From an uncultured bacterium (GTDB lineage Bacteria > GCA-001730085): a stretch of DNA of 32,000 nt. Of this stretch, positions 2,832 through 28,828 are shown piece by piece. The number at the start of each line of letters is the position of its first letter. Within the stretch, counting starts at the first letter, position 1. The translations under genes were made by a program, and so were the position numbers. The notes under the pieces are model-generated. The model did no database searches. It was given only the letters and a program-made list of their open reading frames with translations, and had not been told where the DNA came from. The stretch is from the NCBI GenBank assembly GCA_964565945.1, contig CAZMGY010000003.1, forward strand, positions 30,001 to 62,000. The letters run 5' to 3'.

Positions 2832-4257
2832 TACCTTAAAGCGAGCCAAGCAGGACTTTGAATCTTTGCGTGAAGGAAAGGTTTCGATGTATGTCTGTGG
2901 CGTGACGGTGTACGATGAATGCCATTTGGGACATGCGCGGGCCTATGTTAGCTTCGACGTGTTGCGGCGCTATTTGCAATACAAAGGTTATTGCGTGCGC
3001 TATGTGCAAAATTTCACTGATATTGACGACAAAATCATTGCCCGTGCTCAAGAGCAAGGTGCCGAGGATATGGCTCAAGCGGTTAAGGATGTGAGTGAAC
3101 ATTTTATTGAACGTTATTTTGATGTGATGGATGCCTTGGGTGTTTTGCGTGCCGATGAATATCCTAAGGCTACGGAACACATCGAGGACATGATTGCGAT
3201 GATTGTGTCTTTGATCGAGCGTGGGCATGCTTATGACGTCGATGGAGAGATCTTTTTTGCTGTGAACACCTTTGAGTCCTATGGAAAATTATCGGGAAAA
3301 CAGCTCGACGACTTGCAAGTGGGGCAGCGGGTGGATGTGGATGTGCGCAAAAAAAATCCCCTGGATTTTGTTTTATGGAAAGCCCATAAGCCTGGTGAAC
3401 CTGCCTGGAAAAGTCCTTGGGGTTTGGGGCGTCCAGGATGGCATATCGAATGTTCTGCTATGTCGCGGAAGCACTTGGACGGAACTTTTGATATTCATGG
3501 AGGTGGGGTTGATTTGATTTTTCCGCATCATGAAAATGAAATTGCTCAATCGGAAGCCTGCACGGGTGAATGTTTTGCACGCTACTGGATGCATAATGGG
3601 TTTTTGACCATCAATCAAGAAAAGATGTCGAAGTCTTTGGGGAATTTTTTTACCCTTAAAGACATTTACGAGCAATATGCGCCTGAGGTGGTGCGGATGT
3701 TTTTGCTAACCTCGCATTACCGCTCTCCGATGGATTTTAGCGATGAACGCTTGGCAGAAGCGAAGGAGCAGTGTTATCGGGGCTATATGATGCTCAAAAA
3801 TGCAGGTTTAGCCATTACTGGAGAAACCGCGTCGGTCTGGACCGATGAGATGCAGGTAATCAAAGATAAGTGGTTGGCAGGTATGGACGACGATATTAAC
3901 ACTGCCTTGGCGATTGGTTGTTTGTTCGAGATTGTCCACGAAGCCAATGTGTATATGAAAGAGGGGGTGCAAACAGAGGATCAACGCCAGGAACTTAAGG
4001 GCTGGCTTAATTTGTTTGAAGAGATTGCCAGGGTTATGCACCTGTTTCTAAATCCTTACCGTGTGGTGTCCGAAACATCTCCTACATCCGATGATGTTGA
4101 GCGTGAGATACAGCAGTTATTGCTCGAGCGCAAGCAAGCACGGACGGAGAAAGACTGGGGATCGGCGGATGTTTTGCGGGAGCGTTTATTGGCTCTTTAC
4201 GACGATATTGAGCTTGAAGATACGCCCCAAGGGTCTTTGGTTTCGTTCCGTCTTTGA
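2818..4257 (+). CDS. cysS: Cysteine--tRNA ligase
   Basis: Class I aaRS with HIGH-type CHLGHARAYV and KMSKS (EKMSKSLGNFF). The N-terminus MRLYNTLKR is typical of CysRS. I prefer ATG 2818 (GAAGGAAG at 2802-2809) over the ORF-track GTG 2809. Either start overlaps the accA 3' end. Confidence 0.93.
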   Translation: MRLYNTLKRAKQDFESLREGKVSMYVCGVTVYDECHLGHARAYVSFDVLRRYLQYKGYCVRYVQNFTDIDDKIIARAQEQGAEDMAQAVKDVSEHFIERYFDVMDALGVLRADEYPKATEHIEDMIAMIVSLIERGHAYDVDGEIFFAVNTFESYGKLSGKQLDDLQVGQRVDVDVRKKNPLDFVLWKAHKPGEPAWKSPWGLGRPGWHIECSAMSRKHLDGTFDIHGGGVDLIFPHHENEIAQSEACTGECFARYWMHNGFLTINQEKMSKSLGNFFTLKDIYEQYAPEVVRMFLLTSHYRSPMDFSDERLAEAKEQCYRGYMMLKNAGLAITGETASVWTDEMQVIKDKWLAGMDDDINTALAIGCLFEIVHEANVYMKEGVQTEDQRQELKGWLNLFEEIARVMHLFLNPYRVVSETSPTSDDVEREIQQLLLERKQARTEKDWGSADVLRERLLALYDDIELEDTPQGSLVSFRL

Positions 4258-4262
4258 TATAT

Positions 4263-5336
4263 CTATGTCTTGATGGAGGGCATCATCACCAGGCCAATGC
4301 CTATAAAAAGAAGGTTGATCAGCCATGCGGCGAGCAACGGCGGTAAGTATCCGCCATTTCCCATCGAAAGTCCAATAAAGAATGTGCCTTGATAAATAAA
4401 GGCAACCACCAAGCTCGAAATAACGCCGTGCATGATCGAAGATTGACCACTCAAAATAAAAGGAATGCCGACAAACAGAAGCACCAAACTGGCAAAAGGG
4501 TATGCGATGCGAGAATGAAGGAGAACCTCTTGCTTAGAGGTCTCGTAGCCATTAGCTTTAAGTGTGTTGATATAGGACCGCAGTTCGCGGATACTCATTA
4601 TTTCGATGTCGAAGTTTTTTTCGAAAATTTCGGGTTTTTCGGGGATTTGCAAAAACTTTTCGGCAAAATTGTCGACCACTGATTTGTTGATATTTCTTTG
4701 GTTGTAGTTATAGATGGTGCCGTTGTAAAAAATCCAACCGACGCTGGTCCATGTAGCTTTTTCGGCATTGATTCGGCGTGTGATTTTGTCATTTGTGTCG
4801 TACTGCAAAATGATCACGTGAAACATTTCTTTGTGTTCCACATCATACTCTTGGATGAAGTAGGCATTACGATTAGTTTTAAGAGTCACATTTTTTTTGA
4901 TATAACTTTGTTCTTTGTTGGTGTGAAAGTGTTTTTTTTTAAGTATGGTCCCCAAAAAAGAGCTTTGAGGAATGATGAATTCATTCAGGAGGATGTTGGT
5001 GCAAGAGATGATGAGGCCAAAAAACAAAACAGGAAGAATCACGCGATACAGGTGAACGCCAATGGCTTTAAGGGCTGTGATTTCGTTGAAACGTTCTAAG
5101 TTGTTGAAGGTAAAAATGCATCCCAGGAGTACGGCTAAGGGACTTGATTTTAAAATGAACGAGGGAAGAAGGCAAAGGTAGTATTGGATAATAATTGGAA
5201 AGTTGATTTTGTTTCTTAAAATCATATCGAGACTTTCAAACAAATCGATTACAATGATGAGAAGTAAAAAGGCTGCTAAACAATACAAAAAAGAAGGCAA
5301 GCCTTTTTTGAGAATATAACGATCGATGATTAGCAT
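4263..5336 (-). CDS. LptF/LptG-family LPS export permease (YjgP/YjgQ)
   Basis: From the internal Met the protein reads MLIIDRYILKKGLPSFLY..., the canonical LptF/G N-terminus. It is followed by TM helices, a periplasmic beta-jellyroll-sized insert and C-terminal TMs. The longer ORF-track start (5594) runs through the upstream PCD gene in another frame. Confidence 0.85.
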   Translation of the reverse strand: MLIIDRYILKKGLPSFLYCLAAFLLLIIVIDLFESLDMILRNKINFPIIIQYYLCLLPSFILKSSPLAVLLGCIFTFNNLERFNEITALKAIGVHLYRVILPVLFFGLIISCTNILLNEFIIPQSSFLGTILKKKHFHTNKEQSYIKKNVTLKTNRNAYFIQEYDVEHKEMFHVIILQYDTNDKITRRINAEKATWTSVGWIFYNGTIYNYNQRNINKSVVDNFAEKFLQIPEKPEIFEKNFDIEIMSIRELRSYINTLKANGYETSKQEVLLHSRIAYPFASLVLLFVGIPFILSGQSSIMHGVISSLVVAFIYQGTFFIGLSMGNGGYLPPLLAAWLINLLFIGIGLVMMPSIKT

Positions 5337-5355
5337 AAGCGAGCAGTGTTTCCTT

Positions 5356-5634
5356 TCACACCATGCGTTCAACAGCTTTAAGGGCTTCCAAATCAAGTTG
5401 TGTGATACCTTGGGCACTATGGGTGCTATAGCGAAGGGTACATGTTTTGTAGGACAAGGCGATATCGGGATGATGGTTTTGCTGATGAGCGATTCCAGCG
5501 ACCGTGTTGACGAAGGCCATGGTTTCGTAGAAATTGCTAAACTGGAATGTTTTGTGCAAGGCCTGAGAGGCGTAGTTCCAGCCTGAAAAATCATCTAAGG
5601 CTTGTTGAATATTTTTATCGTTTAATATTGTCAT
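5356..5634 (-). CDS. Pterin-4-alpha-carbinolamine dehydratase (PCD/DCoH family)
   Basis: 92 aa from ATG 5634 (MTILNDKNIQQAL...). Carries the family core FVNTVAGIAHQQNHHPDI. Family size fits. Confidence 0.85.
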   Translation of the reverse strand: MTILNDKNIQQALDDFSGWNYASQALHKTFQFSNFYETMAFVNTVAGIAHQQNHHPDIALSYKTCTLRYSTHSAQGITQLDLEALKAVERMV

Positions 5635-5712
5635 GAACTTGAACCTATTACTATGGTACACACTACTCTATTTATGCTAAACGACAGTGATCTAAACGTC
5701 AACTAAAAATTA

Positions 5713-5721
5713 TGCTAGAAT
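5713..5721 (+). promoter_or_regulatory. Extended -10 promoter element upstream of serC
   Basis: TGcTAGAAT (TG 5713-5714, TAGAAT 5716-5721), about 50 nt upstream of serC. The -35 is weak. Confidence 0.35.
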
Positions 5722-5770
5722 ACCCCTTTGCATTGTGTTAAAAGATCTCTAAAAAAAGGAGTGTTAGGTC

Positions 5771-6856
5771 ATGTCTCGTGTCTATAACTTTTCGGCTGGT
5801 CCAGCCATATTACCAGAAACTGTCTTGCAGAAAGCTGCACAAGAATTGCTCGAATATGGATCATCGGGAATGTCGGTGATGGAAATGTCGCATCGTTCGA
5901 AAGACTATGTGACTATTTTTGAGAATGCACGCCAGGGTTTACGTGAGCTCTTGAATTTACCAGGCACACATGAGGTGTTATTTTTGCAGGGTGGAGCCAC
6001 GTTGCAGTTTGCTATGGTGCCACTAAACCTGATGGGAACGCATAAACGTGCGGGTTACACCAACACGGGAGCGTGGTCGAAAAAGGCCATTGCTGAAGCT
6101 AAGATGTATGGGGAGGTTGTGGACTTGGGGGATTCTTCGGACAAGAATTTTAGCTATATTCCCGAAACGGATTGGGCCAACCTTCCTCAAGATTTGGATT
6201 ATGTGCATATTACGAGCAATAATACCATTTATGGAACGACCTATCATCAATGGCCCGATACGGGAAATATTCCTTTAGTGGTTGATATGTCGTCGAATAT
6301 TTTGTCAGACACCATTGATGTGTCTCAGGCTGATTTGGTTTATGCAGGGGCTCAAAAGAATATTGGCCCTTCTGGAGTGACCGTGGTGATTATTCGTAAA
6401 GATCTAGCTGGTCAAGCCTTAAAGATGACACCGTCTCTTTTGAATTACCATAAACACATCGAAGCTGATTCGATGTTGAATACGCCTCCTTGCTATGGGG
6501 TGTATATGGCGGGCTTGGTGTTTGAATGGCTTAAAGAGCGAGGTGGGGTTGTGGCTATGAAAGAGCACAATGAAGTGAAAGCTAAGTTTTTGTATGAGGC
6601 CATTGATGGATCTAAGCTTTTTGCTTCGCTCGTGGCTGAGAAAGATCGCTCGTTGATGAACTTGCCTTTTGTGATTGGATCTGATGAGCTTGATGCTCAG
6701 TTTATTAGTGAAGCCACCGCTGCAGGCTTGGTCAATCTTAAAGGCCACCGTTTGGTAGGGGGGATGCGTGCGAGCATTTACAATGCGATGCCTTTGGCTG
6801 GGGTGCAAGTCTTAGTAGATTTTATGGTCAAGTTCGAAGCTACACATTCGGTCTAG
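5771..6856 (+). CDS. serC: Phosphoserine aminotransferase
   Basis: N-terminus MSRVYNFSAGPAILPE and a full-length class V aminotransferase of SerC size. AAAGGAG lies upstream. Confidence 0.95.
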   Translation: MSRVYNFSAGPAILPETVLQKAAQELLEYGSSGMSVMEMSHRSKDYVTIFENARQGLRELLNLPGTHEVLFLQGGATLQFAMVPLNLMGTHKRAGYTNTGAWSKKAIAEAKMYGEVVDLGDSSDKNFSYIPETDWANLPQDLDYVHITSNNTIYGTTYHQWPDTGNIPLVVDMSSNILSDTIDVSQADLVYAGAQKNIGPSGVTVVIIRKDLAGQALKMTPSLLNYHKHIEADSMLNTPPCYGVYMAGLVFEWLKERGGVVAMKEHNEVKAKFLYEAIDGSKLFASLVAEKDRSLMNLPFVIGSDELDAQFISEATAAGLVNLKGHRLVGGMRASIYNAMPLAGVQVLVDFMVKFEATHSV

Positions 6857-6874
6857 ATTAAATCAAGGCTCTTG

Positions 6875-6907
6875 GCACTTTCTTTTTTTATTAGAAAAGG
6901 GCTTTTG
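6875..6907 (+). terminator. Possible intrinsic terminator between convergent serC and nrdB
   Basis: Imperfect stem GCACTTT (6875-6881) / AAAGGGC (6896-6902), one mismatch, AT-rich loop, followed by TTTT. Confidence 0.3.
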
Positions 6908-6940
6908 TGTGAACGTGTGTAAAATGTTTAAGTTTACCTT

Positions 6941-8005
6941 TTACCACTCTAGGGTGCCGATCGAGTATTCCTTAACTGTTCCTTCGAAGAAGTTAACCTC
7001 GATCATATTGCTCTGCGTGAGCTCGTCGATCCAAGGACAAGGATTTTCGCTGTTCCATTCGGGAGCGAGCCCGATGCTTTCCAAACGTAGATTACCGACA
7101 AACTGCAAGTATTCTTTAAGAACATCGGGGGTTAGGCCTGGGATGCCTTCGCCAATGCAGGTTGCTCCCCAGTTGTACTCCATCTCGACAGCATCGATGA
7201 AGTTCTTATGAATGCGAGATTTGAACTCTTCGGTCCATAACTCGGGTTGCTCATCTTTAAGGGTATTGGTGATGTGCGTGAAGACGCGCAAGTGCATGTC
7301 TTCGTCTTTATTGATGAATTGAATCATTTCGGCACTTCCAGGCATTTTGTTGTTACGACGCAAGACATAAAAAATCAGAAAAGCGCTGTAAAAGTAGATG
7401 CCTTCAAGAATAATGTTGCCCACACAGGCTTCGAGAAAAAGTTGGTCATTTTCAAATGTGCCTGTTTTAAAATTGGGGTCATCAATTTTGCCCATGGCCT
7501 GCAGAACTGTTTTGTTTTTGCTATATAGCTGACGATCTTTGCGGTACATGCCATAAATTTCTTCGGGATCAAGTCCTAAGGCTTCCACCATGGTGGCATA
7601 GCTATGAACATGCAAAGCTTCTTCGAACGATTGACGTATAATTGCCAGGGTAACCTCTGGTGAGGTGATATGGCGTACGATGTTGTTTACCAAGTTATTA
7701 GTTTGCAAACCATCAAGATTTGAAACAAATGCCAAGCTTCGTTTGTAAACATTGCGCTCATTTTCGGTGAGAGCATTGGGATCATTCCACATTTCGACAT
7801 CTTTGGCCATAGGAACTTCTTGAGGCATCCACGTGTTTTTAAGCATGGTGCGAAAGAGTTCATCGGCCCAAGGATGTTTAAGTGGCGAAACTTGCATGAG
7901 GCCATCATTTTGCCCATTGATAATGCGGCGGTTGTTGATGATTTCGGCATTACGGGTAGGGGTATTTTCGGCGCTTTGAATATATTGTTCTAGTTTAGTT
8001 GCCAT
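6941..8005 (-). CDS. nrdB: Ribonucleotide reductase class I small (beta) subunit
   Basis: Ferritin-like R2 with metal-ligand contexts NLDGLQ and EEALHVHSY (E-x-x-H-x-x-x-Y, so the radical Tyr position is retained). It sits immediately downstream of nrdA. Confidence 0.93.
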   Translation of the reverse strand: MATKLEQYIQSAENTPTRNAEIINNRRIINGQNDGLMQVSPLKHPWADELFRTMLKNTWMPQEVPMAKDVEMWNDPNALTENERNVYKRSLAFVSNLDGLQTNNLVNNIVRHITSPEVTLAIIRQSFEEALHVHSYATMVEALGLDPEEIYGMYRKDRQLYSKNKTVLQAMGKIDDPNFKTGTFENDQLFLEACVGNIILEGIYFYSAFLIFYVLRRNNKMPGSAEMIQFINKDEDMHLRVFTHITNTLKDEQPELWTEEFKSRIHKNFIDAVEMEYNWGATCIGEGIPGLTPDVLKEYLQFVGNLRLESIGLAPEWNSENPCPWIDELTQSNMIEVNFFEGTVKEYSIGTLEW

Positions 8006-17408: not shown

Positions 17409-17714
17409 ATGAAGTATTTTGGTGGTATAAGTATAGCTTTGCTTGTGGTTAGTGTTGGATGTTCATCTCGAGCGATTTATCGGCCATTGATCAATATTAC
17501 TCCGTATCCACCGTCGCCAGAAAAAACCTTTGAGTTGCAGGTTAAAGAGGATGCTTCTCCTGTGAGTCCGATTGAGCCTTTTCGCTTGAGAACAATGTAT
17601 GGAGGCTACGATCACTCGTCTAATCTGATCAAGAGTACGTTTGGTTATGGCGTTCGTTTGAAAGGAAAACGTGATCATACAGGGATTGACTTTGTGGCAC
17701 CGATCGGTGTTTAG
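17409..17714 (+). pseudogene. Truncated M23-family peptidase lipoprotein (N-terminal 101 codons only)
   Basis: Lipoprotein-type signal (ISIALLVVSVGC). The ORF stops just inside the M23 HxxxD motif (KRDHTGIDFVAPIGV*). No continuation of the domain appears in any frame downstream. The 3' end overlaps the convergent gene by 4 nt. Confidence 0.65.
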
Positions 17715-18241: not shown

Positions 18242-18270
18242 ACTTTAACATGATTGAATATACTTGACAA
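18242..18270 (-). promoter_or_regulatory. Candidate promoter for the secreted hypothetical gene
   Basis: Minus strand: TTGTCA (18270-18265), 17 nt, TAAAGT (18247-18242). The -35 overlaps the -35 of the divergent plus-strand promoter. Confidence 0.35.
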
Positions 18271-18292
18271 AGGATCGTGGGTTTATTATCGT
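18264..18292 (+). promoter_or_regulatory. Candidate promoter for the Fur-remnant/ATPase unit
   Basis: Consensus TTGACA (18264-18269), 17 nt, TATCGT (18287-18292). A better TATTAT sits at only 14-nt spacing. Confidence 0.4.
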
Positions 18293-18313
18293 AAATAGAA
18301 ATATTTTCTATTT
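18293..18313. promoter_or_regulatory. Perfect 9-3-9 AT-rich palindrome, Fur-family-operator-like
   Basis: AAATAGAAA-TAT-TTTCTATTT lies immediately after the candidate -10, over the expected transcription start, and 6 nt before the Fur-like ATG. Confidence 0.5.
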
Positions 18314-18318
18314 AGGGA

Positions 18319-18564
18319 ATGGTGCTGGAGTATTTGATTCAGCAATTGCAACAATCGGATTAGAAAGTGACTCCTTGGCGCAAAGCCTTGCTGGCTCTTT
18401 TTAAGAGCCAGTCGAAAGCTTTAAGTGTCGGAGGGGTCTACCAGCATTTTAAGTAAAAATTTGATCCTGTTGGCTTGCCAAGTGTCTATCGTAATTTGGA
18501 TGCTTTGTGTGATTTAGGTCTGTTATATGTCATGTGTTCCAATGACGGTCGCCATAAAGTGTAA
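18319..18564 (+). pseudogene. Fur-family (Fur/Zur/PerR-like) regulator remnant: DNA-binding domain only, two in-frame stops
   Basis: Single-frame translation: MVLEYLIQQLQQSD*KVTPWRKALLALFKSQSKALSVGGVYQHFK*KFDPVGLPSVYRNLDALCDLGLLYVMCSNDGRHKV*. It matches the Fur winged-helix pattern (T-x-x-R..L..., S.aTVYRxL..L...GL). In-frame TAG is at 18361-18363 and TAA at 18454-18456. The metal-binding/dimerisation half is absent. Confidence 0.7.
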
Positions 18565-21500
18565 TGTTGAAGGCCTCTGTGGGGATTGCAACGATGAATC
18601 GATATCTATTTAAAAAAATTAAGTGTCTTACGGCACTCATTCTTGTTCAGCTATTGGTGTGGCAGTCGGTGTCGTATGCGCTTAGTCCAGGCTCACATGT
18701 GGTGGATATGTATGCTGAGTTTCAGCATAAAGTGCAGCATGGAGTGCCATGGGCATTGATGAATCAGTCGGCGAAGGAGCATGCGCATGCTCCCGCAAAG
18801 CCCGAACAAAAACCTGTTCCTAAACACGAGCATAAACATGATCATAAGCATGAGTACAAAAAAGTTGAGACCCTTAAATTATTTTATTCCATTCCCAGTG
18901 AATGTTTTGCTTTGGGTTTAGTTATTCTGGTGCTGGCAGTGGTCTTTACTGGAGGATCTTATTGGTTTTTAATGCTTGGTCTGCCTTTACTGATACAGGT
19001 GATATATGACATGGAAGTTACCTTAGAGCTTTATTGGAATAAGAGTGCTCTCAAAAAAGTCTATGATTTTATGCAAAATAGTGCTGGGGTTGTGATTATT
19101 GCGATTGTGCTGTTTGGTTTGATGGAGATATTAGGCCACTTGGTGATGGTTGGTGCTGCGGCGACACCTCTTTTTTGGACCTTCACGGTAATTTCTCTGA
19201 TTGGAGTGATTGTTTATGCTCTTCCTGAGATGAACAATGGATGGAAGGCTGTTTTTAAAGCCATAGATTTTGGTCGTCAAGGCAAGAACCCCATGAGAGC
19301 CTTGGGTATGAGCTTTGTTCGGGGGTTTTCGCTATTTTTATTTATACTTTTACCTCTTTTGGGGATTGTTCATTTAAACCTTGCCTTAGTGGTGTTAATT
19401 GCAGCGTCTGTCCAATTTGCTTATATTTTGAAACGTCAAGCTCGCGAATACCAAATGGAAGCCATGGGGCAGTTGAAAAATCGAGAAATTCCCCGAAATA
19501 TTGTGGTGGTGGCGCTGAATGGAGCAAAACTCCAGCAAAAAGTGATCCTGACCGAAGAAGAGGTTCAGGATATGTTAAATCAAGGGATCGAGGTGACGGC
19601 TTATGTGGCTCAAAATACGTGGGTGCCTCGCATGGATGGTTTGATTGAAGCTGTAATCAATCAAAAGCAGGCCTATGTTGATGAGTCGGAGCTTAATGGG
19701 GAAGAGCAGCTTAAGCTAGTTAAGACCAGTGATCAAATCAAGGGAGGGACTTTTTTGACAGGAGCGCCTATTCATGTGCGCATTTTGCAGGTTGGCGAGC
19801 AAAGCGAAATTGGTCATATTGAATGCTCTCTCAAACGATTTAGCAGCAAAGGTGTGTCGCGAATAGAACGATTTTCTGATAAGGTTGGGCAGTATTTTAT
19901 CTACACCGTGTTCTTTTTTGCTATCGTTGGTTTTTTGGTGAGTTATTTGACTGTTGGCTCCATAACGACAGCATTAATTGGGGCTCTGACCGTCTTTGTA
20001 ATCATATGTCCTTGTGCCTTTTTGATTGGGCAACCTTTAGCCTTTAGTGCTGCGCGCCAGAACTTGGCGGCGACGCATAAGATTAGCGTCAATGACGATC
20101 GTTCGTTTTTAGTGCCGCGTGTGATGGTGTTCGATAAAAGCAATACGATCACCGATGGGGTTGAAATTGATCGTGAGAAGCCTTGGGTGTCATTAGGTGC
20201 CGATATGGATGATGAAAAAGAGAAAGAGCGTATTTTGAAATGGGCCGCGATGGCTGAGTACCCTTATGCACAAAATCAGTATGCTCAAGAGGTGATTGAG
20301 TTGGCAATTCACCATGGTGCCACAGACCGTTTAAAGTTGGAAAATCATAAGAATTCTGTGAAAAGTCAGATTTATGAGAGTGGCAAAGGTCTTAAAGCGA
20401 TCATCAAGGAACCTCATTATGGACATGCTCATGATCAGGAGGTTTACTTGGGGAACTTAGAAACGCTTTTGACAATGGTGACCACAATTCCCGAAGAGCA
20501 ACAGCAAGCTTTGCGCAGACAAGTGGATGAAGTTGTTAATGCTGATTCGGACCAGGTTGTTACACCGATTGTGATGTACGATATTACTCATGAGAAGCCT
20601 TTGCTCGTTTTTCGGATTATTAATCGAATTCGTCCCAAGGTGAAAGAATTTTTGGAGGATTACCGCAACATAGCGAAGCGCAATCCTTATTACACTTTTT
20701 TAAATGGAGTGTCACGTTTATTGTTCCGAACAGATTCTTTTCCTTCACAAACTTTGGCAGTGGTGGCATCGGGTGACCGCAAAGAAGCAGTTCGAAAAAT
20801 TGTTAAAAAAATAGATATCAAGTTAGCTTTGGCCGAAGTGAGCCCTTCGGAAAAAGCTTTGTTTGTGTTACTGCTTAAACATGGTGGATGGCTTGGAAAG
20901 TTCCAAAAAGATTTGGAAAAACGAAAGGATCCCCTGATTTTAACCTATCAAGAATTTCGCACCTATCTTATGGACAAAAGGTATGCCACGAAGAAAGAGG
21001 TTAATGACCTTGAGCAAATTTATCTTAAAGAGCATCAAGGGCCCGAAGATCATGCTTTAAAAACCAATGTGGTTTTCTTTATGGGCGATGGTAGCAACGA
21101 CCGTCAGGCCATGCAAGTGGCTCATGCGGGAATTTCGTTCAATGGAGCACGTTCGGTTGGGCAGGGAGATATTCTTTTGGGAGCCGACAAAAAAGAGCAA
21201 CCGCTTTTTTCACAGGTTAGTTATATTATAAAAACTTTTCGGCGCACCTATGGCATCATTCTAACCAATATTTTCTTGATAGCCTTTGTTTGGAATATTG
21301 TGATACTCACTTTGATTTTTGCAGGAGTGTTAGGACCAGGGTGGGCGGCTCTAATGCATGCTTTGAATACGCTATTTGTTGTGATTTTGGCAATGAAACT
21401 AATGGCGAAACCCAAAGAATTTTTTAAACAAGAGTTTAAAAATATGTTTAAAGGTAAGGTATCTCATGTCGATAAGGAGCCGAAACACAAATCTCAAAAA

Positions 21501-22391
21501 AAGGCTGTTCAGAACCCTAAAAGCAATGTGGCGCAATTGATGACTAAAGAAGGGGTTCGCCCGCAGGCGCTATTTCAGGACGATTGCTGTAGGTCTAGGT
21601 TTCGTGGTCGTGCCCAAGGGGGGCGTGGCGGGCATCATCATGATGATGCTGAAGTCGACCATTGTTGTTCGTCACCAGTTGTCTATCGGCCTCAGTATTA
21701 TCGAGTTCCAGGCCTTTATGAAAGTAGGCCAGTTTTAACAGTTGCACAGTTACTAGGTGGTCAAGTTACTGCATGGCAGCAGTGGGCGGGTGCAATAGCG
21801 GATATGAGACAACTGTTAACCACAATGCAGCAACGCAGAAATAGCAAGCAAGCGAATATTACTTATATGATGGGGCCTCTTTTTGATGACTATGTTCTTG
21901 ATGAAGGTGTCTTTATGGATTGGGTGATGACTCATGCCAATAAGATTCAGTTGATACCCAGTGCCACAGTGGGGGCGATGCACTGGAAAGATGCGCAAGG
22001 CATTTATCGCATTCATATCGATCCTCGGTTGCTTAAAGATAGCGGTATGCAAGGCGTTTTAGCGAGTGAGTTATTGCATGAGCTTTTGGAGATTTATTTT
22101 GTGACGCATGCGCGTGCTCAGGAGCCAATTTGGCATGAGGCCTATACGATAGAGAACCTGGATAAGGCCTCCTTTGAAGCGTCGATATTTGCGTTGCAAA
22201 TTCAACTGCTTCAAGCGTGGGGAATGGATATGAATCGTATTCGTAATGGGTATATTTCTGTGGAGCAACAGTTTTTTGATGGCCGAGCATTTTTTAGTAC
22301 TGGTTTTGATGAGATTAATTCGTCTGTCGCTTCTTCTCGGCCACTTCAAGAGGTGGTTCAAAGTCAGTTTCAAGTGCTTTTTGTCGCATAA
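18564..22391 (+). CDS. Atypical P1B-type (heavy-metal) P-type ATPase fusion protein, 1275 aa
   Basis: A-domain block VPRMDGL..YVDESELNGEEQLKLVK..GGTFL. CPC in a TM helix (VIICPCAFLIGQP, nt 20007-20015). Phosphorylation-site block VFDKSNTITDG (20133-20147). SGDRKEAV, AEVSPSEK and GDGSNDRQAM (21084-21101), then two C-terminal TMs. Additional parts: N-terminal hydrophobic segment, His-rich tract (HAHAPAKPEQKPVPKHEHKHDHKHEYKK), extra TMs, and a ~325-aa C-terminal extension. Confidence 0.85.
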   Translation: MLKASVGIATMNRYLFKKIKCLTALILVQLLVWQSVSYALSPGSHVVDMYAEFQHKVQHGVPWALMNQSAKEHAHAPAKPEQKPVPKHEHKHDHKHEYKKVETLKLFYSIPSECFALGLVILVLAVVFTGGSYWFLMLGLPLLIQVIYDMEVTLELYWNKSALKKVYDFMQNSAGVVIIAIVLFGLMEILGHLVMVGAAATPLFWTFTVISLIGVIVYALPEMNNGWKAVFKAIDFGRQGKNPMRALGMSFVRGFSLFLFILLPLLGIVHLNLALVVLIAASVQFAYILKRQAREYQMEAMGQLKNREIPRNIVVVALNGAKLQQKVILTEEEVQDMLNQGIEVTAYVAQNTWVPRMDGLIEAVINQKQAYVDESELNGEEQLKLVKTSDQIKGGTFLTGAPIHVRILQVGEQSEIGHIECSLKRFSSKGVSRIERFSDKVGQYFIYTVFFFAIVGFLVSYLTVGSITTALIGALTVFVIICPCAFLIGQPLAFSAARQNLAATHKISVNDDRSFLVPRVMVFDKSNTITDGVEIDREKPWVSLGADMDDEKEKERILKWAAMAEYPYAQNQYAQEVIELAIHHGATDRLKLENHKNSVKSQIYESGKGLKAIIKEPHYGHAHDQEVYLGNLETLLTMVTTIPEEQQQALRRQVDEVVNADSDQVVTPIVMYDITHEKPLLVFRIINRIRPKVKEFLEDYRNIAKRNPYYTFLNGVSRLLFRTDSFPSQTLAVVASGDRKEAVRKIVKKIDIKLALAEVSPSEKALFVLLLKHGGWLGKFQKDLEKRKDPLILTYQEFRTYLMDKRYATKKEVNDLEQIYLKEHQGPEDHALKTNVVFFMGDGSNDRQAMQVAHAGISFNGARSVGQGDILLGADKKEQPLFSQVSYIIKTFRRTYGIILTNIFLIAFVWNIVILTLIFAGVLGPGWAALMHALNTLFVVILAMKLMAKPKEFFKQEFKNMFKGKVSHVDKEPKHKSQKKAVQNPKSNVAQLMTKEGVRPQALFQDDCCRSRFRGRAQGGRGGHHHDDAEVDHCCSSPVVYRPQYYRVPGLYESRPVLTVAQLLGGQVTAWQQWAGAIADMRQLLTTMQQRRNSKQANITYMMGPLFDDYVLDEGVFMDWVMTHANKIQLIPSATVGAMHWKDAQGIYRIHIDPRLLKDSGMQGVLASELLHELLEIYFVTHARAQEPIWHEAYTIENLDKASFEASIFALQIQLLQAWGMDMNRIRNGYISVEQQFFDGRAFFSTGFDEINSSVASSRPLQEVVQSQFQVLFVA

Positions 22392-22540
22392 ACCGTTTTT
22401 TAGGGCTAGTCCGACTCAAAGAGCCATCGCGACCTTTCCTTTGGAAAGATATACATTTACCTATTAAAACCACCCTTTGTCAAAAAATATCTTTAGGTAA
22501 ATGTTTTAGAACATTAGGCATAGCGTAAAATTGTCTCTTT

Positions 22541-22569
22541 TAAAAAAGGCTAGTATCTCTCTACTAGCC
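22541..22569 (-). terminator. Orphan rho-independent-type terminator oriented on the minus strand
   Basis: GGCTAGTA (22548-22555), loop TCTCTC, TACTAGCC (22562-22569). The A6 run at 22542-22547 becomes a U-run only on the minus-strand transcript. Confidence 0.45.
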
Positions 22570-22834
22570 CTATATGAAAAACTCCACTCAAGAATACTTT
22601 TAATCCGAGGTTATATAATCAATTTCCATTTCTTTGCATCCGCAATCATGGAAATAGCTAAAAACCTTTTTGTAGAGGTAGACGTGTATCGGGCATTATA
22701 TAGTGTTAACTGTTAGGATAAATGAACGCTTGCAACTATTACAGTAATAACGAAAGCTATTGCAATACGCACAGGCTTTTTTCCTCTAAATAATCGATAC
22801 ACTGATTTTTTTGACTTGGGAACAATTTAGATAC

Positions 22835-22843
22835 TGTTATAAT
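22835..22843 (+). promoter_or_regulatory. Extended -10 promoter upstream of purM
   Basis: TGtTATAAT (TATAAT 22838-22843), about 85 nt upstream of purM ATG 22926. TTGACT at 22811-22816 is too far away (21 nt) to serve as the -35. Confidence 0.4.
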
Positions 22844-22925
22844 GGCTCTTGCGCAACCGCCATAATTGATTACAAATATATTAATGACATAATGGGGTTT
22901 TCCAAAGAGAGGGATTGTTTTTGAC

Positions 22926-27598: not shown

Positions 27599-28828
27599 GC
27601 TTTCTAACGGCCTTAATGTTCACAAACTCGCGGAATCCCAAAGTGCAACAGTTCGAAGGCAAAGCTGGACTCTTTGATTCCTCCAAAGGGAAGGCGTGGG
27701 TCGGACTTGACAAAGCTATTCACAAAACAAGCTCCAGCATCCAGTTGTTCACGGGAAAAATTAAGCCCTTTTGGCTAGGTCTTTGGTGAATATCGCCGAA
27801 CCTAGGCCAAAGGAGCTTTGCTTAGCGAGTTGAATTGCTTCGGCCTCATCCTTGGCTTTGATTAAAGCGCCCACTGGGCCAAACAGTTCCTCGTTGAAAG
27901 CCACCATGTCCAGTTTGACGTCTCCCAGCAATGTGGCGGGGTATAAGGCTCCAGGATGTTCGGGTAAAGTTCCTCCACAGAGTAAGGTTGCACCTTGCTC
28001 CAAATAACGGGTGACTTGGTCGTGCAGTTTATCGCGTAGAATCGACACGAGCCATGGGGGCAATCGTGGTGGGGATCCAGAAGTTCTCCCAAACCTTGTG
28101 ATTTAAAGAGCTGTGTCATCTTTTCGGCAAATGCGTCATAAAGCGATTCTTCGATAATAAATCATTTGGCTACAATACAACGTTAGTCTCCATTGATCAG
28201 GCGAGAGGCTGTGCAGGTTTGTGCCGCAAGTTCAATATCTGCATCAATCAAAACGACATAGGGGTCGCTGCCTCCTAATTCGAGAACCGACTTTTTAAAA
28301 ACGGCACTGGTTTCGAGGACCACGTTTTTTATCACCAGTGCTGAACCGACCATATTGGAAAGATGTTTGAGCAGGTCAGTGTTACCCGCTATTAGGGCTG
28401 GAGCAAGAAAACGGAATACTTGCCACAAAGGGCAATTCCAGGGCATGACCGCCAAAATGGTACCTAAAGGTTGGTAGCTAATAAAACTGGTGGTGTTGGC
28501 AATATCGACGGGTTCATCGGCCAAAAACTGAGTGGCATGTGTGGCGTAATATTCATAGACCATGGCGCACTTTTCGACTTCACCCTTGGCGTGTGACAAA
28601 GGTTTTTCCATTTCGGCCGTGATGAGTTCTCCATAAACTTGGGTGTTATCTTTGAGGAGTTAGGCCATTTGATTTATCAGTTTGGAGCGATTTTCGAACG
28701 AAGTGGTTTTCTAGCTGGCAAACACCTTGTGAACTTCTTGCATGATTGTATGGATACCGTCTGTCGAATGAGTCTCCTAGATGGCAAGGGTTTTTGAGTG
28801 TGTAGGGCTTAAGGGCTGTCATAGGCAT
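27599..28828 (-). pseudogene. Decayed NAD(P)-dependent aldehyde dehydrogenase (succinate-semialdehyde dehydrogenase-like)
   Basis: ALDH motifs are spread over at least 5 ORF fragments in three frames. These include PLGTILAVMPWNCPLWQ, LELGGSDP, NGD*RCIVAK*FIIEE (catalytic Cys context), EELFGPV, SFGLGSAIFT, PFGGIKES and EFVNIKAV. In-frame stops are at 28711-28713 (TAG at the conserved Trp), 28660-28662 (TAA), 28183-28185 (TAA at the GQ position) and 28162-28164 (TGA at the KR position). There are frameshifts near 28065, 27762 and 27640, and a ~35-aa internal deletion between the NVV and KKSVLELGG blocks. The left boundary is approximate. Confidence 0.85.

What the first reader, a model, noticed from the sequence alone, without database searches (positions are those of the whole stretch)
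19695..21101. Non-canonical catalytic signatures in the ATPase: DKSNT, NGE, AEYP and a P-domain insertion
The invariant P-type motif DKTGT reads DKSNT (20133-20147). The actuator TGE/SGE dephosphorylation motif reads NGE (19695-19703). The P1B nucleotide-binding SEHP motif reads AEYP (20253-20264), so the His whose mutation disables ATP binding in human ATP7B is a Tyr. About 65 extra residues (nt ~20874-21071) lie between the SPSEK block and GDGSND. The phospho-acceptor Asp, the CPC, and GDGxND are kept. The protein could be a mechanistically divergent pump, a slow or regulatory ATPase, or a pseudo-enzyme repurposed as a metal sensor or channel.
Basis: partly seen in the sequence, partly recalled or inferred. 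Interest (0 to 1): 0.65.

Follow-up and report, generated by a model that had tools for sequence, protein, structure and literature searches.

The report
Divergent heavy-metal pump with altered catalytic motifs
This is an intact, selectively maintained gene for a very unusual heavy-metal-type P-type ATPase, found in only two uncultured PVC-group bacteria; it has changed three "invariant" signature motifs but kept every residue that does the chemistry, so it is most likely a working, divergent pump rather than a dead gene.

Summary
ORF 18564-22391 (+, 1275 aa) reads NGE for T/SGE, DKSNT for DKTGT, has no His-Pro dipeptide anywhere, and carries a 63-aa P-domain insertion (nt 20883-21071). One item is mis-registered: SEHP aligns with A569-Q-N571-Q572, not AEYP, so the His is an Asn, not a Tyr.

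An exhaustive HMMER scan found only four relatives before ordinary P1B pumps begin. All come from this organism's sample series or from the bryozoan-associated PVC bacterium AB1_div. The AB1_div orthologue sits at the same purL/purM locus, is about 35% identical, and shares NGE, DKSNT, HP loss and both insertions. Two paralogues keep TGE and DKTGT but also lack HP.

All chemistry-bearing residues are invariant in the family: D524, K525, T528, G379-E380, S/TGD, K764 and GDGxND. Synonymous sites are saturated while pN is 0.43. AlphaFold2 gives a confident P1B fold, with CopA and ZntA as top matches.

Best reading: a functional, lineage-restricted P1B-like metal pump with a remodelled nucleotide site. 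It probably moves a divalent metal, given its M6 HxxNT motif, His/Cys-rich tails, an upstream Fur pseudogene and iron-uptake genes beside a paralogue. A pseudo-enzyme role is not excluded. Gene decay is effectively refuted.

The parts
18564..22391 (+). Whole ORF, 1275 aa; gene callers use M11 (nt 18594), giving 1265 aa. A P1B-like P-type ATPase with a long C-terminal extension.
18594..18704 (+). N-terminal signal-peptide-like hydrophobic helix followed by a motif (S-x-S-x-[AG]-L-[AS]-P-x-S-x-V) conserved in all five family members. L40, P42 and S44 are invariant.
   Evidence: topology unresolved
18771..18863 (+). His-rich stretch (KEHAHAP...KHEHKHDHKHEYKK). The orthologue P0055 has a His/Cys-rich stretch at the same place.
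18873..19040 (+). Two extra hydrophobic helices upstream of the canonical MA/MB/M1/M2 helices. P141 is invariant in the family.
19695..19703 (+). Actuator-domain motif NGE in place of T/SGE. G379 and E380 are invariant.
20007..20015 (+). CPC in M4, the transmembrane metal site.
20133..20147 (+). Phosphorylation loop DKSNT in place of DKTGT. D524, K525 and T528 are invariant.
20256..20282 (+). N-domain segment E565-Y-P-Y-A-Q-N571-Q572-Y573. E565 is the conserved adenine-contacting Glu. N571-Q572 occupy the His-Pro positions. Y573 is invariant in the family.
20382..20390 (+). G607-K-G609, the GxG of the P1B nucleotide pocket, retained.
   Evidence: PMC5089723
20673..20747 (+). Family-specific 25-aa P-domain insertion (AKRNPYYTFLNGVSRLLFRTDSFPS). 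N714, S717, F721 and P727 are invariant. Predicted helical.
20769..20777 (+). SGD, the TGD motif with the conservative Ser also seen in some canonical pumps.
20841..20855 (+). SPSEK; K764 is the invariant catalytic Lys of HAD motif III.
20883..21071 (+). Family-specific 63-aa P-domain insertion between the PxxK helix and the GDGxND strand. Present in all five members, with F798 invariant. Predicted as three helices plus a short strand, block-mean pLDDT 82-95 except one loop.
21084..21101 (+). GDGSND, HAD motif IV, canonical.
21291..21296 (+). M5 W910-N911, in place of the YN of Cu(I) pumps; invariant in the family.
21357..21371 (+). M6 H932-A-L-N935-T936. It aligns residue for residue with the HEGST motif of the P1B-4 pump sCoaT (7qbz), and with MxxSS of CopA.
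21579..21668 (+). Cys/His-rich cytoplasmic tail: DDCC...HHH...HCC.
21711..22388 (+). C-terminal domain of about 225 aa of unknown function. It shows only a weak match to the paralogue P0056, no other homologue, and a poor structure model.
18316..18564 (+). Remnant of a Fur-family regulator gene: N-terminal winged-helix half only, with two in-frame stops. Its final TAA overlaps the ATG at 18564 (TAATG).
18292..18314 (.). Perfect 10+10 nt palindrome (TAAATAGAAA-TAT-TTTCTATTTA) abutting the -10 of a promoter-like site (18264-18292). A candidate operator upstream of the Fur remnant and the ATPase.

Best explanation
The ORF encodes a functional, fast-evolving member of a very small, lineage-restricted offshoot of the P1B (heavy-metal) P-type ATPases. 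The family is known so far only from this organism and from the bryozoan-associated PVC-superphylum bacterium AB1_div.

I infer that it still runs a Post-Albers-type cycle, as follows:
- ATP binds in an N-domain pocket that keeps the adenine-contacting Glu (E565) and the Gly residues (G607, G609, G630). The His-Pro that normally touches the phosphates has been replaced by Asn571-Gln572, next to a family-invariant Tyr573.
- Asp524 of DKSNT is phosphorylated with the help of the intact HAD core: K525, S526 (Thr-like), T528, S736-G-D738, K764, and D842/N845/D846.
- Glu380 of NGE catalyses dephosphorylation.

Metal would pass through a transmembrane site made of C482-P-C484 (M4), N911 (M5) and H932/N935/T936 (M6). 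That site resembles the Co/Fe/Zn-type P1B-4 site more than the Cu(I) site, so a divalent transition metal, possibly Fe(II), is the likeliest cargo.

The His-rich N-terminal stretch, the CC/HHH/CC tail, the two conserved P-domain insertions and the C-terminal domain are probably regulatory or docking elements. The altered motifs probably change kinetics or nucleotide handling rather than abolish catalysis.

Shown here: gene integrity, fold, conservation pattern, synteny and selective constraint. Inferred: ATP binding mode, phosphoenzyme formation, substrate and direction of transport.
For: (1) Family membership and fold. Pfam E1-E2_ATPase scores 83.4 bits against a cut-off of 28.1. NCBIfam generic P-type TIGR01494 scores 74.7 against 62.3. 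The best solved relatives are CopA pumps, E about 1e-22. The AlphaFold2 model of aa 11-1000 has pLDDT 77.9 and pTM 0.77. Foldseek top hits are LpCopA 4bbj, AfCopA 7r0g and ZntA 4umw, E 1e-31 to 1e-28.

(2) The variants are conserved, not random. The syntenic orthologue P0055 (nrdA-thrS-infC-rpmI-rplT-purQ-purL-[ATPase]-purM-purN-mfd) shares NGE, DKSNT, HP loss and both insertions at 35% identity.

(3) The catalytic residues are invariant in all five family members: G379, E380, D524, K525, T528, T530, S736, G737, D738, K764, G841, D842, G843, N845 and D846. Of 41 positions that are at least 93% conserved in 189 canonical P1B pumps, 30 are kept. Three of the 11 changes are metal-specificity residues.

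(4) Constraint. Against the orthologue, pS = 0.74 (saturated) and pN = 0.43, giving dN 0.65 and dS above 3. Both ORFs are intact (1275 and 1080 codons), although flanking housekeeping proteins have diverged to 51-75% identity and nearby genes in this window are pseudogenised.

(5) Tolerance of the variants. NGE occurs in 5 and DKSGT in 1 of 189 otherwise canonical pumps. P4 flippases use DGET (PMC4937031). T-to-N in the A-domain motif and G-to-N/D in the phosphorylation loop each arose twice in the family, in clade A and in P0056. The tree supporting this has bootstrap values of 100/100/100/82.

(6) HP is absent also in the paralogues that keep TGE and DKTGT (P0057, P0058). HP loss is therefore an old family trait compatible with otherwise orthodox motifs.

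(7) Metal link. The M6 HALNT motif aligns with HEGST of sCoaT. There are His/Cys-rich termini. A Fur-family pseudogene ends in a TAATG overlap with the ORF. The paralogue P0204 sits among imelysin, DHOR and FbpABC-like iron-uptake genes.
Against: - No biochemical data exist for any family member.
- The His of the HP motif contacts the ATP phosphates (PMC5089723). From my own knowledge, not checked here, its H1069Q mutation in ATP7B is disabling; here it is Asn.
- G-to-N at DKTGT position 4 was not seen in any of 189 canonical pumps.
- Pfam's HAD Hydrolase model does not reach threshold (13.2 bits against 26.4). All P1B subfamily models of NCBIfam score far below their cut-offs.
- The gene evolves about twice as fast as its neighbours.
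- Only two clade-A sequences exist, so site-wise selection cannot be estimated.
- The N-terminal topology (a signal-like helix plus six hydrophobic helices before the A domain) does not add up to an orthodox orientation and was not resolved.
- The substrate assignment rests on motif resemblance and gene neighbourhood only.
Confidence: 0.6

Rival explanations
1. Pseudo-enzyme. The protein keeps the P1B fold and metal site but no longer turns over ATP productively. It would act as a metal sensor, regulator, chaperone-like membrane receptor or passive, gated metal pathway, perhaps signalling through the C-terminal domain.
For: Three signature motifs deviate at once, and the HP motif that contacts the ATP phosphates is gone (PMC5089723). 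G-to-N in DKTGT is unseen in 189 canonical pumps. The HAD Pfam model is sub-threshold. There is a large unexplained C-terminal domain and two conserved insertions. In AB1_div, canonical-motif paralogues in the same genome (P0057, P0058) could supply the pumping.
Against: A protein that no longer needs phosphoryl transfer has no reason to keep D524, K525, T528, S/TGD, K764, GDGxND and G-E380 invariant over this much divergence. HP is missing also in paralogues with fully orthodox TGE and DKTGT. NGE occurs in ordinary Cu pumps. No sensor or output domain is recognisable.
Confidence: 0.22
2. Decaying gene. The motif changes would be early symptoms of pseudogenisation in a genome undergoing reduction.
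For: The window holds clear pseudogenes next to and near the ORF: a Fur remnant at 18316-18564 and split aldehyde dehydrogenase fragments at 27761-28611. The ATPase is the fastest-evolving gene of the syntenic block.
Against: A 3.8-kb ORF is intact here and a 3.2-kb one in the orthologue, although synonymous sites are saturated. pN of 0.43 is well below pS of 0.74. The deviant residues are identical in both orthologues. The AlphaFold2 model is confident, including the insertions. The sequence is identical in six assemblies.
Confidence: 0.03
3. An active P-type pump that has left metal transport altogether. It would carry a different cargo, or use a different phosphoryl donor or nucleotide, made possible by the rebuilt N-domain and P-domain insertions.
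For: The nucleotide pocket is remodelled family-wide, with N-x-Y instead of H-P-L. The A-domain sequence LNGEEQLK resembles the flippase DGET context. The clade-B paralogues have CACP or SSCP instead of CPC. None of the P1B subgroup signatures is fully met.
Against: CPC, N911 and the His/Asn/Thr of M6 are classic soft or borderline metal ligands at the canonical positions. There are His/Cys-rich tails, a Fur remnant and an iron-gene neighbourhood. The closest structures are all metal pumps.
Confidence: 0.1

Closest known systems
P1B-1 Cu(I) pumps (A. fulgidus CopA, L. pneumophila CopA, ATP7B)
   Same: These are the best sequence and structure matches. Shared features are CPC in M4, Asn in M5, the overall A/P/N domain order, the MA/MB-type N-terminal helices, and the GDGxND, PxxK and S/TGD motifs.
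   Different: There is no HMA metal-binding domain. The protein has WN instead of YN and HxxNT instead of MxxSS. It has no HP motif. It reads DKSNT and NGE. It has two P-domain insertions, two extra N-terminal helices, a signal-like N-terminus and a C-terminal extension of about 330 aa. It scores far below the TIGR01511 cut-off (101 against 397).
P1B-4 Co/Zn/Fe(II)-type pumps (sCoaT, PDB 7qbz; from memory also PfeT and CtpD)
   Same: The M6 motif aligns His-x-x-[S/N]-Thr with HEGST without gaps, and the M5-M6 loop is equally short. There is no HMA domain. A divalent-metal context is plausible.
   Different: M4 is CPC rather than SPC. The Glu of HEGST is Ala. The HP, DKTGT and TGE deviations and the insertions are absent from P1B-4 pumps.
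P4 lipid flippases (DGET motif)
   Same: They show that a functional P-type ATPase can carry a non-Thr/Ser residue (Asp) before the Gly-Glu of the dephosphorylation loop (PMC4937031). Asn here is the amide analogue.
   Different: Flippases have an unrelated membrane domain, 10 TM helices, a CDC50 subunit and lipid cargo. There is no evidence of common descent of this feature.
Plant HMA2/HMA4 C-terminal tails (recalled from memory, not tested here)
   Same: Cytoplasmic C-terminal tails with Cys-Cys pairs and His runs that bind metal and regulate the pump. Here the tail reads DDCC...HHH...HCC.
   Different: The tail here is much shorter and is followed by an additional domain of about 225 aa of unknown fold.

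Membership tests
P-type ATPase superfamily (HAD-IC) | Phospho-acceptor Asp in D-K-T-G-T | tested here: met
   D524, K525 and T528 are aligned and invariant; positions 3 and 4 are S and N
P-type ATPase superfamily (HAD-IC) | Actuator loop T-G-E with catalytic Glu | tested here: inconclusive
   G379-E380 are kept and invariant; T is replaced by N. NGE is seen in 5 of 189 canonical pumps, and DGET in P4 pumps
P-type ATPase superfamily (HAD-IC) | HAD motifs II-IV: (S/T)GD, catalytic Lys, GDGxND | tested here: met
   S736-G-D738, K764 and G841-D-G-S-N-D846 are all invariant in the family
P-type ATPase superfamily (HAD-IC) | Curated profile thresholds | tested here: met
   TIGR01494 scores 74.7 against 62.3; PF00122 scores 83.4 against 28.1. 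PF00702 is sub-threshold
P-type ATPase superfamily (HAD-IC) | Formation of an aspartyl-phosphate intermediate | not testable with these tools
   Needs [gamma-32P]ATP labelling of expressed protein
P1B heavy-metal ATPases | (C/S/T)P(C/H/S) motif in M4 | tested here: met
   C482-P-C484
P1B heavy-metal ATPases | HP (SEHPL) motif in the N-domain | tested here: not met
   These positions are occupied by N571-Q572; there is no HP dipeptide anywhere in the protein; HP is absent in all five family members
P1B heavy-metal ATPases | Adenine-pocket Glu and Gly residues of the P1B N-domain | tested here: met
   E565, G607, G609 and G630 are aligned; their roles are described in PMC5089723
P1B heavy-metal ATPases | Eight-helix topology with MA/MB and best structural match to P1B pumps | tested here: inconclusive
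   Foldseek top hits are all P1B pumps. The model shows two additional helices and a signal-like N-terminal helix.
P1B heavy-metal ATPases | Curated subfamily thresholds (TIGR01525, TIGR01511, TIGR01512) | tested here: not met
   154 against 346; 101 against 397; 90 against 314
P1B heavy-metal ATPases | Cytoplasmic HMA-type metal-binding domain | tested here: not met
   No PF00403 or other metal-binding-domain hit; His-rich and Cys-rich low-complexity stretches instead. This domain is not obligatory for the class
P1B-1 (Cu(I)) | CPC + YN (M5) + MxxSS (M6) | tested here: not met
   CPC is present, but M5 is WN and M6 is HALNT
P1B-4 (Co/Zn/Fe) | SPC (M4) + HEGxT (M6) | tested here: not met
   M4 is CPC. 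M6 H932 and T936 align, but Glu is replaced by Ala and Gly by Leu

The most novel reading that the evidence does not exclude
A natural lineage of P1B-derived ATPases has rebuilt both the nucleotide pocket (no His-Pro; Asn-x-Tyr instead) and the phosphorylation loop (DKSNT or DKTDT), and added a folded 63-aa P-domain module. As a result it either uses a different nucleotide-binding or phosphoryl-transfer regime, or has become a non-pumping, ATP- or phosphorylation-gated metal sensor or conduit. That would be a first natural example of a repurposed heavy-metal P-type ATPase.
Probability: 0.12. Interest if true: 0.7.

Novelty: new variant of a known kind. Interest (0 to 1): 0.4.

Why it matters
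DKTGT, TGE and, for heavy-metal pumps, HP are treated as invariant signatures. They are used both to recognise P-type ATPases and to interpret disease mutations; from my own knowledge, H1069Q in ATP7B is the commonest Wilson-disease allele.

A selectively maintained natural family that lacks HP altogether, and that twice independently replaced the Thr of TGE and the Gly of DKTGT, offers a natural experiment. It shows which parts of these motifs are truly indispensable, and how ATP can be held in a P1B N-domain without the His.

It also flags that profile thresholds miss this family. The proteins are annotated as hypothetical or carry no name. The practical reach is limited, because the family is known from only two uncultured organisms and nothing has been measured.

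Tried and rejected
- Word-indexed homologue search with the whole protein found only its own cluster plus canonical pumps. The same search with the family profile was swamped by canonical pumps and did not recover the relatives.
The window's own genome record and name were therefore not obtained.
- Two metagenome-contig scans with family-specific patterns (IVMY..., N[GF][FV]SRLLFR) found no further relatives.
- Polymorphism-based dN/dS was impossible: five other assemblies are nucleotide-identical over the gene. Orthologue dN/dS can only be bounded, because dS is saturated.
- C-terminal domain: no Pfam hit, no homologue, only a marginal match to P0056 (E 0.001), and an AlphaFold2 model at pLDDT 49.6, too poor for a fold search. 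The HELLE string is not a zincin motif, because the His is not conserved in P0056.
- Fur-box search upstream of all family genes gave nothing convincing; the best was 13 of 19 upstream of P0057.
- Rfam and tRNA scans of the window found only tRNA-Val, and nothing in the long intergenic spacers.
- The promoter and terminator scan was not above shuffled expectation.
- A literature search for a HAD phosphatase with Asn at motif I position +3 (DLDNT) found no paper. That precedent is not used as evidence.
- Model coordinates are not exposed. The spatial position of the insertions and of N571/Y573 relative to the ATP site, and the N-terminal topology, could not be checked.
Full report
**What is there**

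The finding lies in a single ORF, 18564-22391 on the + strand (1275 aa; gene callers start at M11, nt 18594). It sits between purQ/purL and purM/purN in an ordinary chromosomal block that also holds nrdAB, thrS, infC, rpmI, rplT and mfd.

- NGE at aa 378-380 (nt 19695-19703)
- CPC at aa 482-484
- DKSNT at aa 524-528 (nt 20133-20147)
- SPSEK at aa 760-764
- GDGSND at aa 841-846

The gene is nucleotide-identical in five other assemblies from different sequencing runs. The odd motifs are therefore not assembly errors.

**Motif registration**

Three independent alignments agree: phmmer against A. fulgidus CopA, MAFFT with nine canonical P1B pumps, and MAFFT with 189 canonical P1B pumps.
- NGE lies under T/SGE.
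- DKSNT lies under DKTGT.
- SGD lies under TGD.
- K764 and GDGSND are canonical.

E565 is the conserved Glu of 'ALE', and S-E-H-P aligns with A569-Q-N571-Q572. The His is therefore replaced by Asn, not Tyr. The conclusion still holds, because the protein contains no HP, TGE, SGE or DKT string anywhere.

The P-domain insertion is real: aa 774-836 (63 aa, nt 20883-21071) face gaps in more than 90% of canonical sequences. A second 25-aa insertion lies at aa 704-728.

**How unusual the variants are**

Among the 189 canonical pumps:
- NGE occurs in 5, QGE in 1 and DKSGT in 1.
- His-to-Gln occurs in 1.
- None has a non-Gly at DKTGT position 4, and none lacks HP in this way.

Of 41 positions that are at least 93% conserved in those pumps, the window protein keeps 30. 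The 11 changes include S526, N527, N571 and Q572, plus the metal-specificity residues W910, H932 and N935.

**Relatives**

The word-indexed search found only the protein's own cluster. The exhaustive HMMER scan of 1.84 billion representatives found just four relatives before ordinary P1B pumps begin at E about 1e-22:

| Protein | E-value |
|---|---|
| P0055 | 8e-153 |
| P0056 | 1e-122 |
| P0057 | 4e-87 |
| P0058 | 1e-58 |

P0055 and P0057 are 'hypothetical proteins' of 'PVC group bacterium (ex Bugula neritina AB1)'. This is bin AB1_div of Miller et al. 2016, a 1.9-Mb divergent PVC-superphylum genome (PMC5041132). P0058 comes from the same sample. P0056 and its near-identical cluster member P0204 come from run series that also carry the window's contig.

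Two further scans of JGI metagenome contigs with family-specific patterns found nothing more.

A neighbour-joining tree makes the family monophyletic against canonical P1B pumps. Clade A is (window, P0055) and clade B is ((P0056, P0057), P0058), with bootstrap support 100/100/100/82.

**Are the substitutions conserved?**

P0055 is a positional orthologue, with the same nine-gene neighbourhood. It is about 35% identical, while the flanking proteins are 51-75% identical. It shares NGE, DKSNT, the loss of HP and both insertions.

| Protein | A-domain motif | Phosphorylation loop | HP motif |
|---|---|---|---|
| window | NGE | DKSNT | absent |
| P0055 | NGE | DKSNT | absent |
| P0056 | NGE | DKTDT | absent |
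| P0057 | TGE | DKTGT | absent |
| P0058 | TGE | DKTGT | absent |

All five read E-x(3-4)-[ED]-x-[NS]-x-Y in place of the SEHP segment, with Y573 invariant. All five carry both insertions, WN in M5 and, in the family alignment, H-x-x-N in M6.

P0056 and P0057 are each other's closest relatives (40% identity). The T-to-N and G-to-N/D changes therefore arose twice, which argues that these positions are tolerant or adaptively altered in this family.

Every residue that carries out phosphoryl transfer is invariant: G379, E380, D524, K525, T528, T530, S736-G-D738, K764 and G841-D-G-x-N-D846.

**Selection**

Against the orthologue, synonymous sites are saturated (pS 0.74, as for all neighbours). pN is 0.43, giving dN 0.65. 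For the neighbouring genes dN is 0.20-0.43. The gene evolves fast but is clearly constrained; omega is below about 0.2 as a bound.

This contrasts with real pseudogenes in the same window:
- a Fur-family remnant with two in-frame stops directly upstream
- a split aldehyde dehydrogenase

**Structure**

AlphaFold2 on aa 11-1000, with a 47-sequence alignment, gave pLDDT 77.9 and pTM 0.77. Foldseek's best matches are LpCopA (4bbj), AfCopA (7r0g) and ZntA (4umw/4umv).

In the model, N571 sits at the end of the loop between the first two N-domain helices. I recall this as the position of the HP His in P1B N-domain structures; no solved structure was compared here. The 63-aa insertion is predicted as three helices and a short strand, with block-mean pLDDT 82-95 apart from one loop. 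The 25-aa insertion is predicted as a helix.

Two extra helices precede MA/MB, and the N-terminus is a signal-peptide-like helix followed by a family-conserved L-[AS]-P-x-S-x-V motif. The resulting helix count does not give an orthodox topology.

**Cargo clues**

- M4 is CPC and M5 is WN.
- M6 H932-A-L-N935-T936 aligns without gaps to HEGST of the P1B-4 pump sCoaT.
- The N-terminal region is His-rich here and His/Cys-rich in P0055. The C-terminal tail reads DDCC...HHH...HCC.
- The upstream Fur-family remnant ends in a TAATG overlap with the ATG at 18564, which implies a former regulator-pump operon.
- A perfect 10+10 palindrome abuts a promoter-like -10 element just upstream.
- The paralogue P0204 sits among imelysin, di-haem oxidoreductase and FbpABC-like iron-uptake genes. 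P0057 lies near an IscA-like gene.

Together these suggest a divalent transition metal, possibly iron. This is inference only.

**Interpretation**

The most likely reading (about 0.6) is a working, lineage-restricted P1B-like metal pump. Its catalytic HAD core and Gly-Glu dephosphorylation loop are intact, its N-domain has replaced the phosphate-contacting His-Pro, and its P-domain has acquired two structured modules.

Published work supports tolerance at the first TGE position, since P4 flippases use DGET (PMC4937031). It also defines the roles of the retained Glu and Gly residues and of the lost His in the P1B nucleotide pocket (PMC5089723).

The rivals are:
- A catalytically inert sensor or regulator (about 0.2). 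It cannot be excluded without biochemistry, but it would not explain the invariance of all catalytic residues.
- Gene decay (about 0.03). It is contradicted by synteny, ORF integrity, constraint and shared substitutions.
- A change of cargo or nucleotide (about 0.1). It is possible but has no positive support.

**Classification and score**

The protein passes the generic P-type profile and Pfam's E1-E2_ATPase model. It fails every curated P1B subfamily threshold, fails the HP criterion, and fits neither the P1B-1 nor the P1B-4 transmembrane signature.

I therefore file it as working like a P1B pump, but as a new variant rather than a member of any described subgroup. Interest is moderate (0.4). 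Conserved natural variants of 'invariant' motifs are notable to P-type ATPase specialists, but the family is tiny, comes from uncultured organisms, and nothing has been measured.

Noticed in passing
window 18316-18564 (+): Remnant of a Fur-family regulator (PF01475, 36.2 bits against a cut-off of 23.1). Only the N-terminal winged-helix half is left, with two in-frame stops. Its terminal TAA overlaps the ATG at 18564 (TAATG), suggesting a former translationally coupled regulator-pump operon. The AB1_div orthologous locus has no such remnant.
   Followed up: partly
window 18292-18314: Perfect 10-nt inverted repeat with a 3-nt spacer (TAAATAGAAA TAT TTTCTATTTA) abutting the -10 of a promoter-like site (18264-18292). 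It is unique in the window and absent from the related loci. Possibly the operator of the lost regulator.
   Followed up: partly
window 27761-28063 and 28183-28611 (-): Two adjacent ORF fragments (100 and 142 aa) that both hit aldehyde dehydrogenase (PF00171). A split pseudogene, indicating ongoing gene loss in this genome.
   Followed up: partly
window 17409-17714 (+): A 101-aa ORF with a signal-like start that ends in '...DHTGIDFVAPIGV' followed by a stop. This resembles the start of an M23 peptidase catalytic motif, so it may be a truncated gene. There is no Pfam support, and the downstream frames do not continue it.
   Followed up: partly
window 22392-22925: Long (535 nt), AT-rich, ORF-free spacer between the ATPase and purM. 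It is 42 nt longer than in the otherwise identical contigs L001-L005 (493 nt). No Rfam family matches it.
   Followed up: partly
L091 206-12840 (paralogue P0204 at 3556-7125): The NGE/DKTDT paralogue lies directly after a HAD hydrolase, an imelysin (Peptidase_M75) and a di-haem oxidoreductase (DHOR), and upstream of an FbpABC-like iron ABC importer. A HAD hydrolase also precedes the orthologous P0057 in AB1_div (L089).
   Followed up: partly
window 18594-18704; all five family proteins: A signal-peptide-like helix followed by a strictly conserved L-[AS]-P-x-S-x-V motif is the best-conserved N-terminal feature of the family. Together with six hydrophobic helices before the A-domain, it gives a helix count that does not fit the orthodox cytoplasmic orientation. 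One helix may be cleaved or may not span the membrane.
   Followed up: no
proteins P0102, P0137, P0153, P0210, P0212, P0113, P0126, P0187 (not in the window): Otherwise canonical Cu-type P1B pumps (CPC/YN/MxxSS, HP present) that carry variants of 'invariant' motifs. Five have NGE, one has QGE, one has DKSGT and one has Gln for the HP His. Minor natural variation at these positions exists outside the family too.
   Followed up: partly
window 21711-22388 (+): C-terminal domain of about 225 aa with no detectable homologue except a marginal match to the paralogue P0056. The low-confidence model suggests a small beta-sheet followed by helices. Function unknown.
   Followed up: partly
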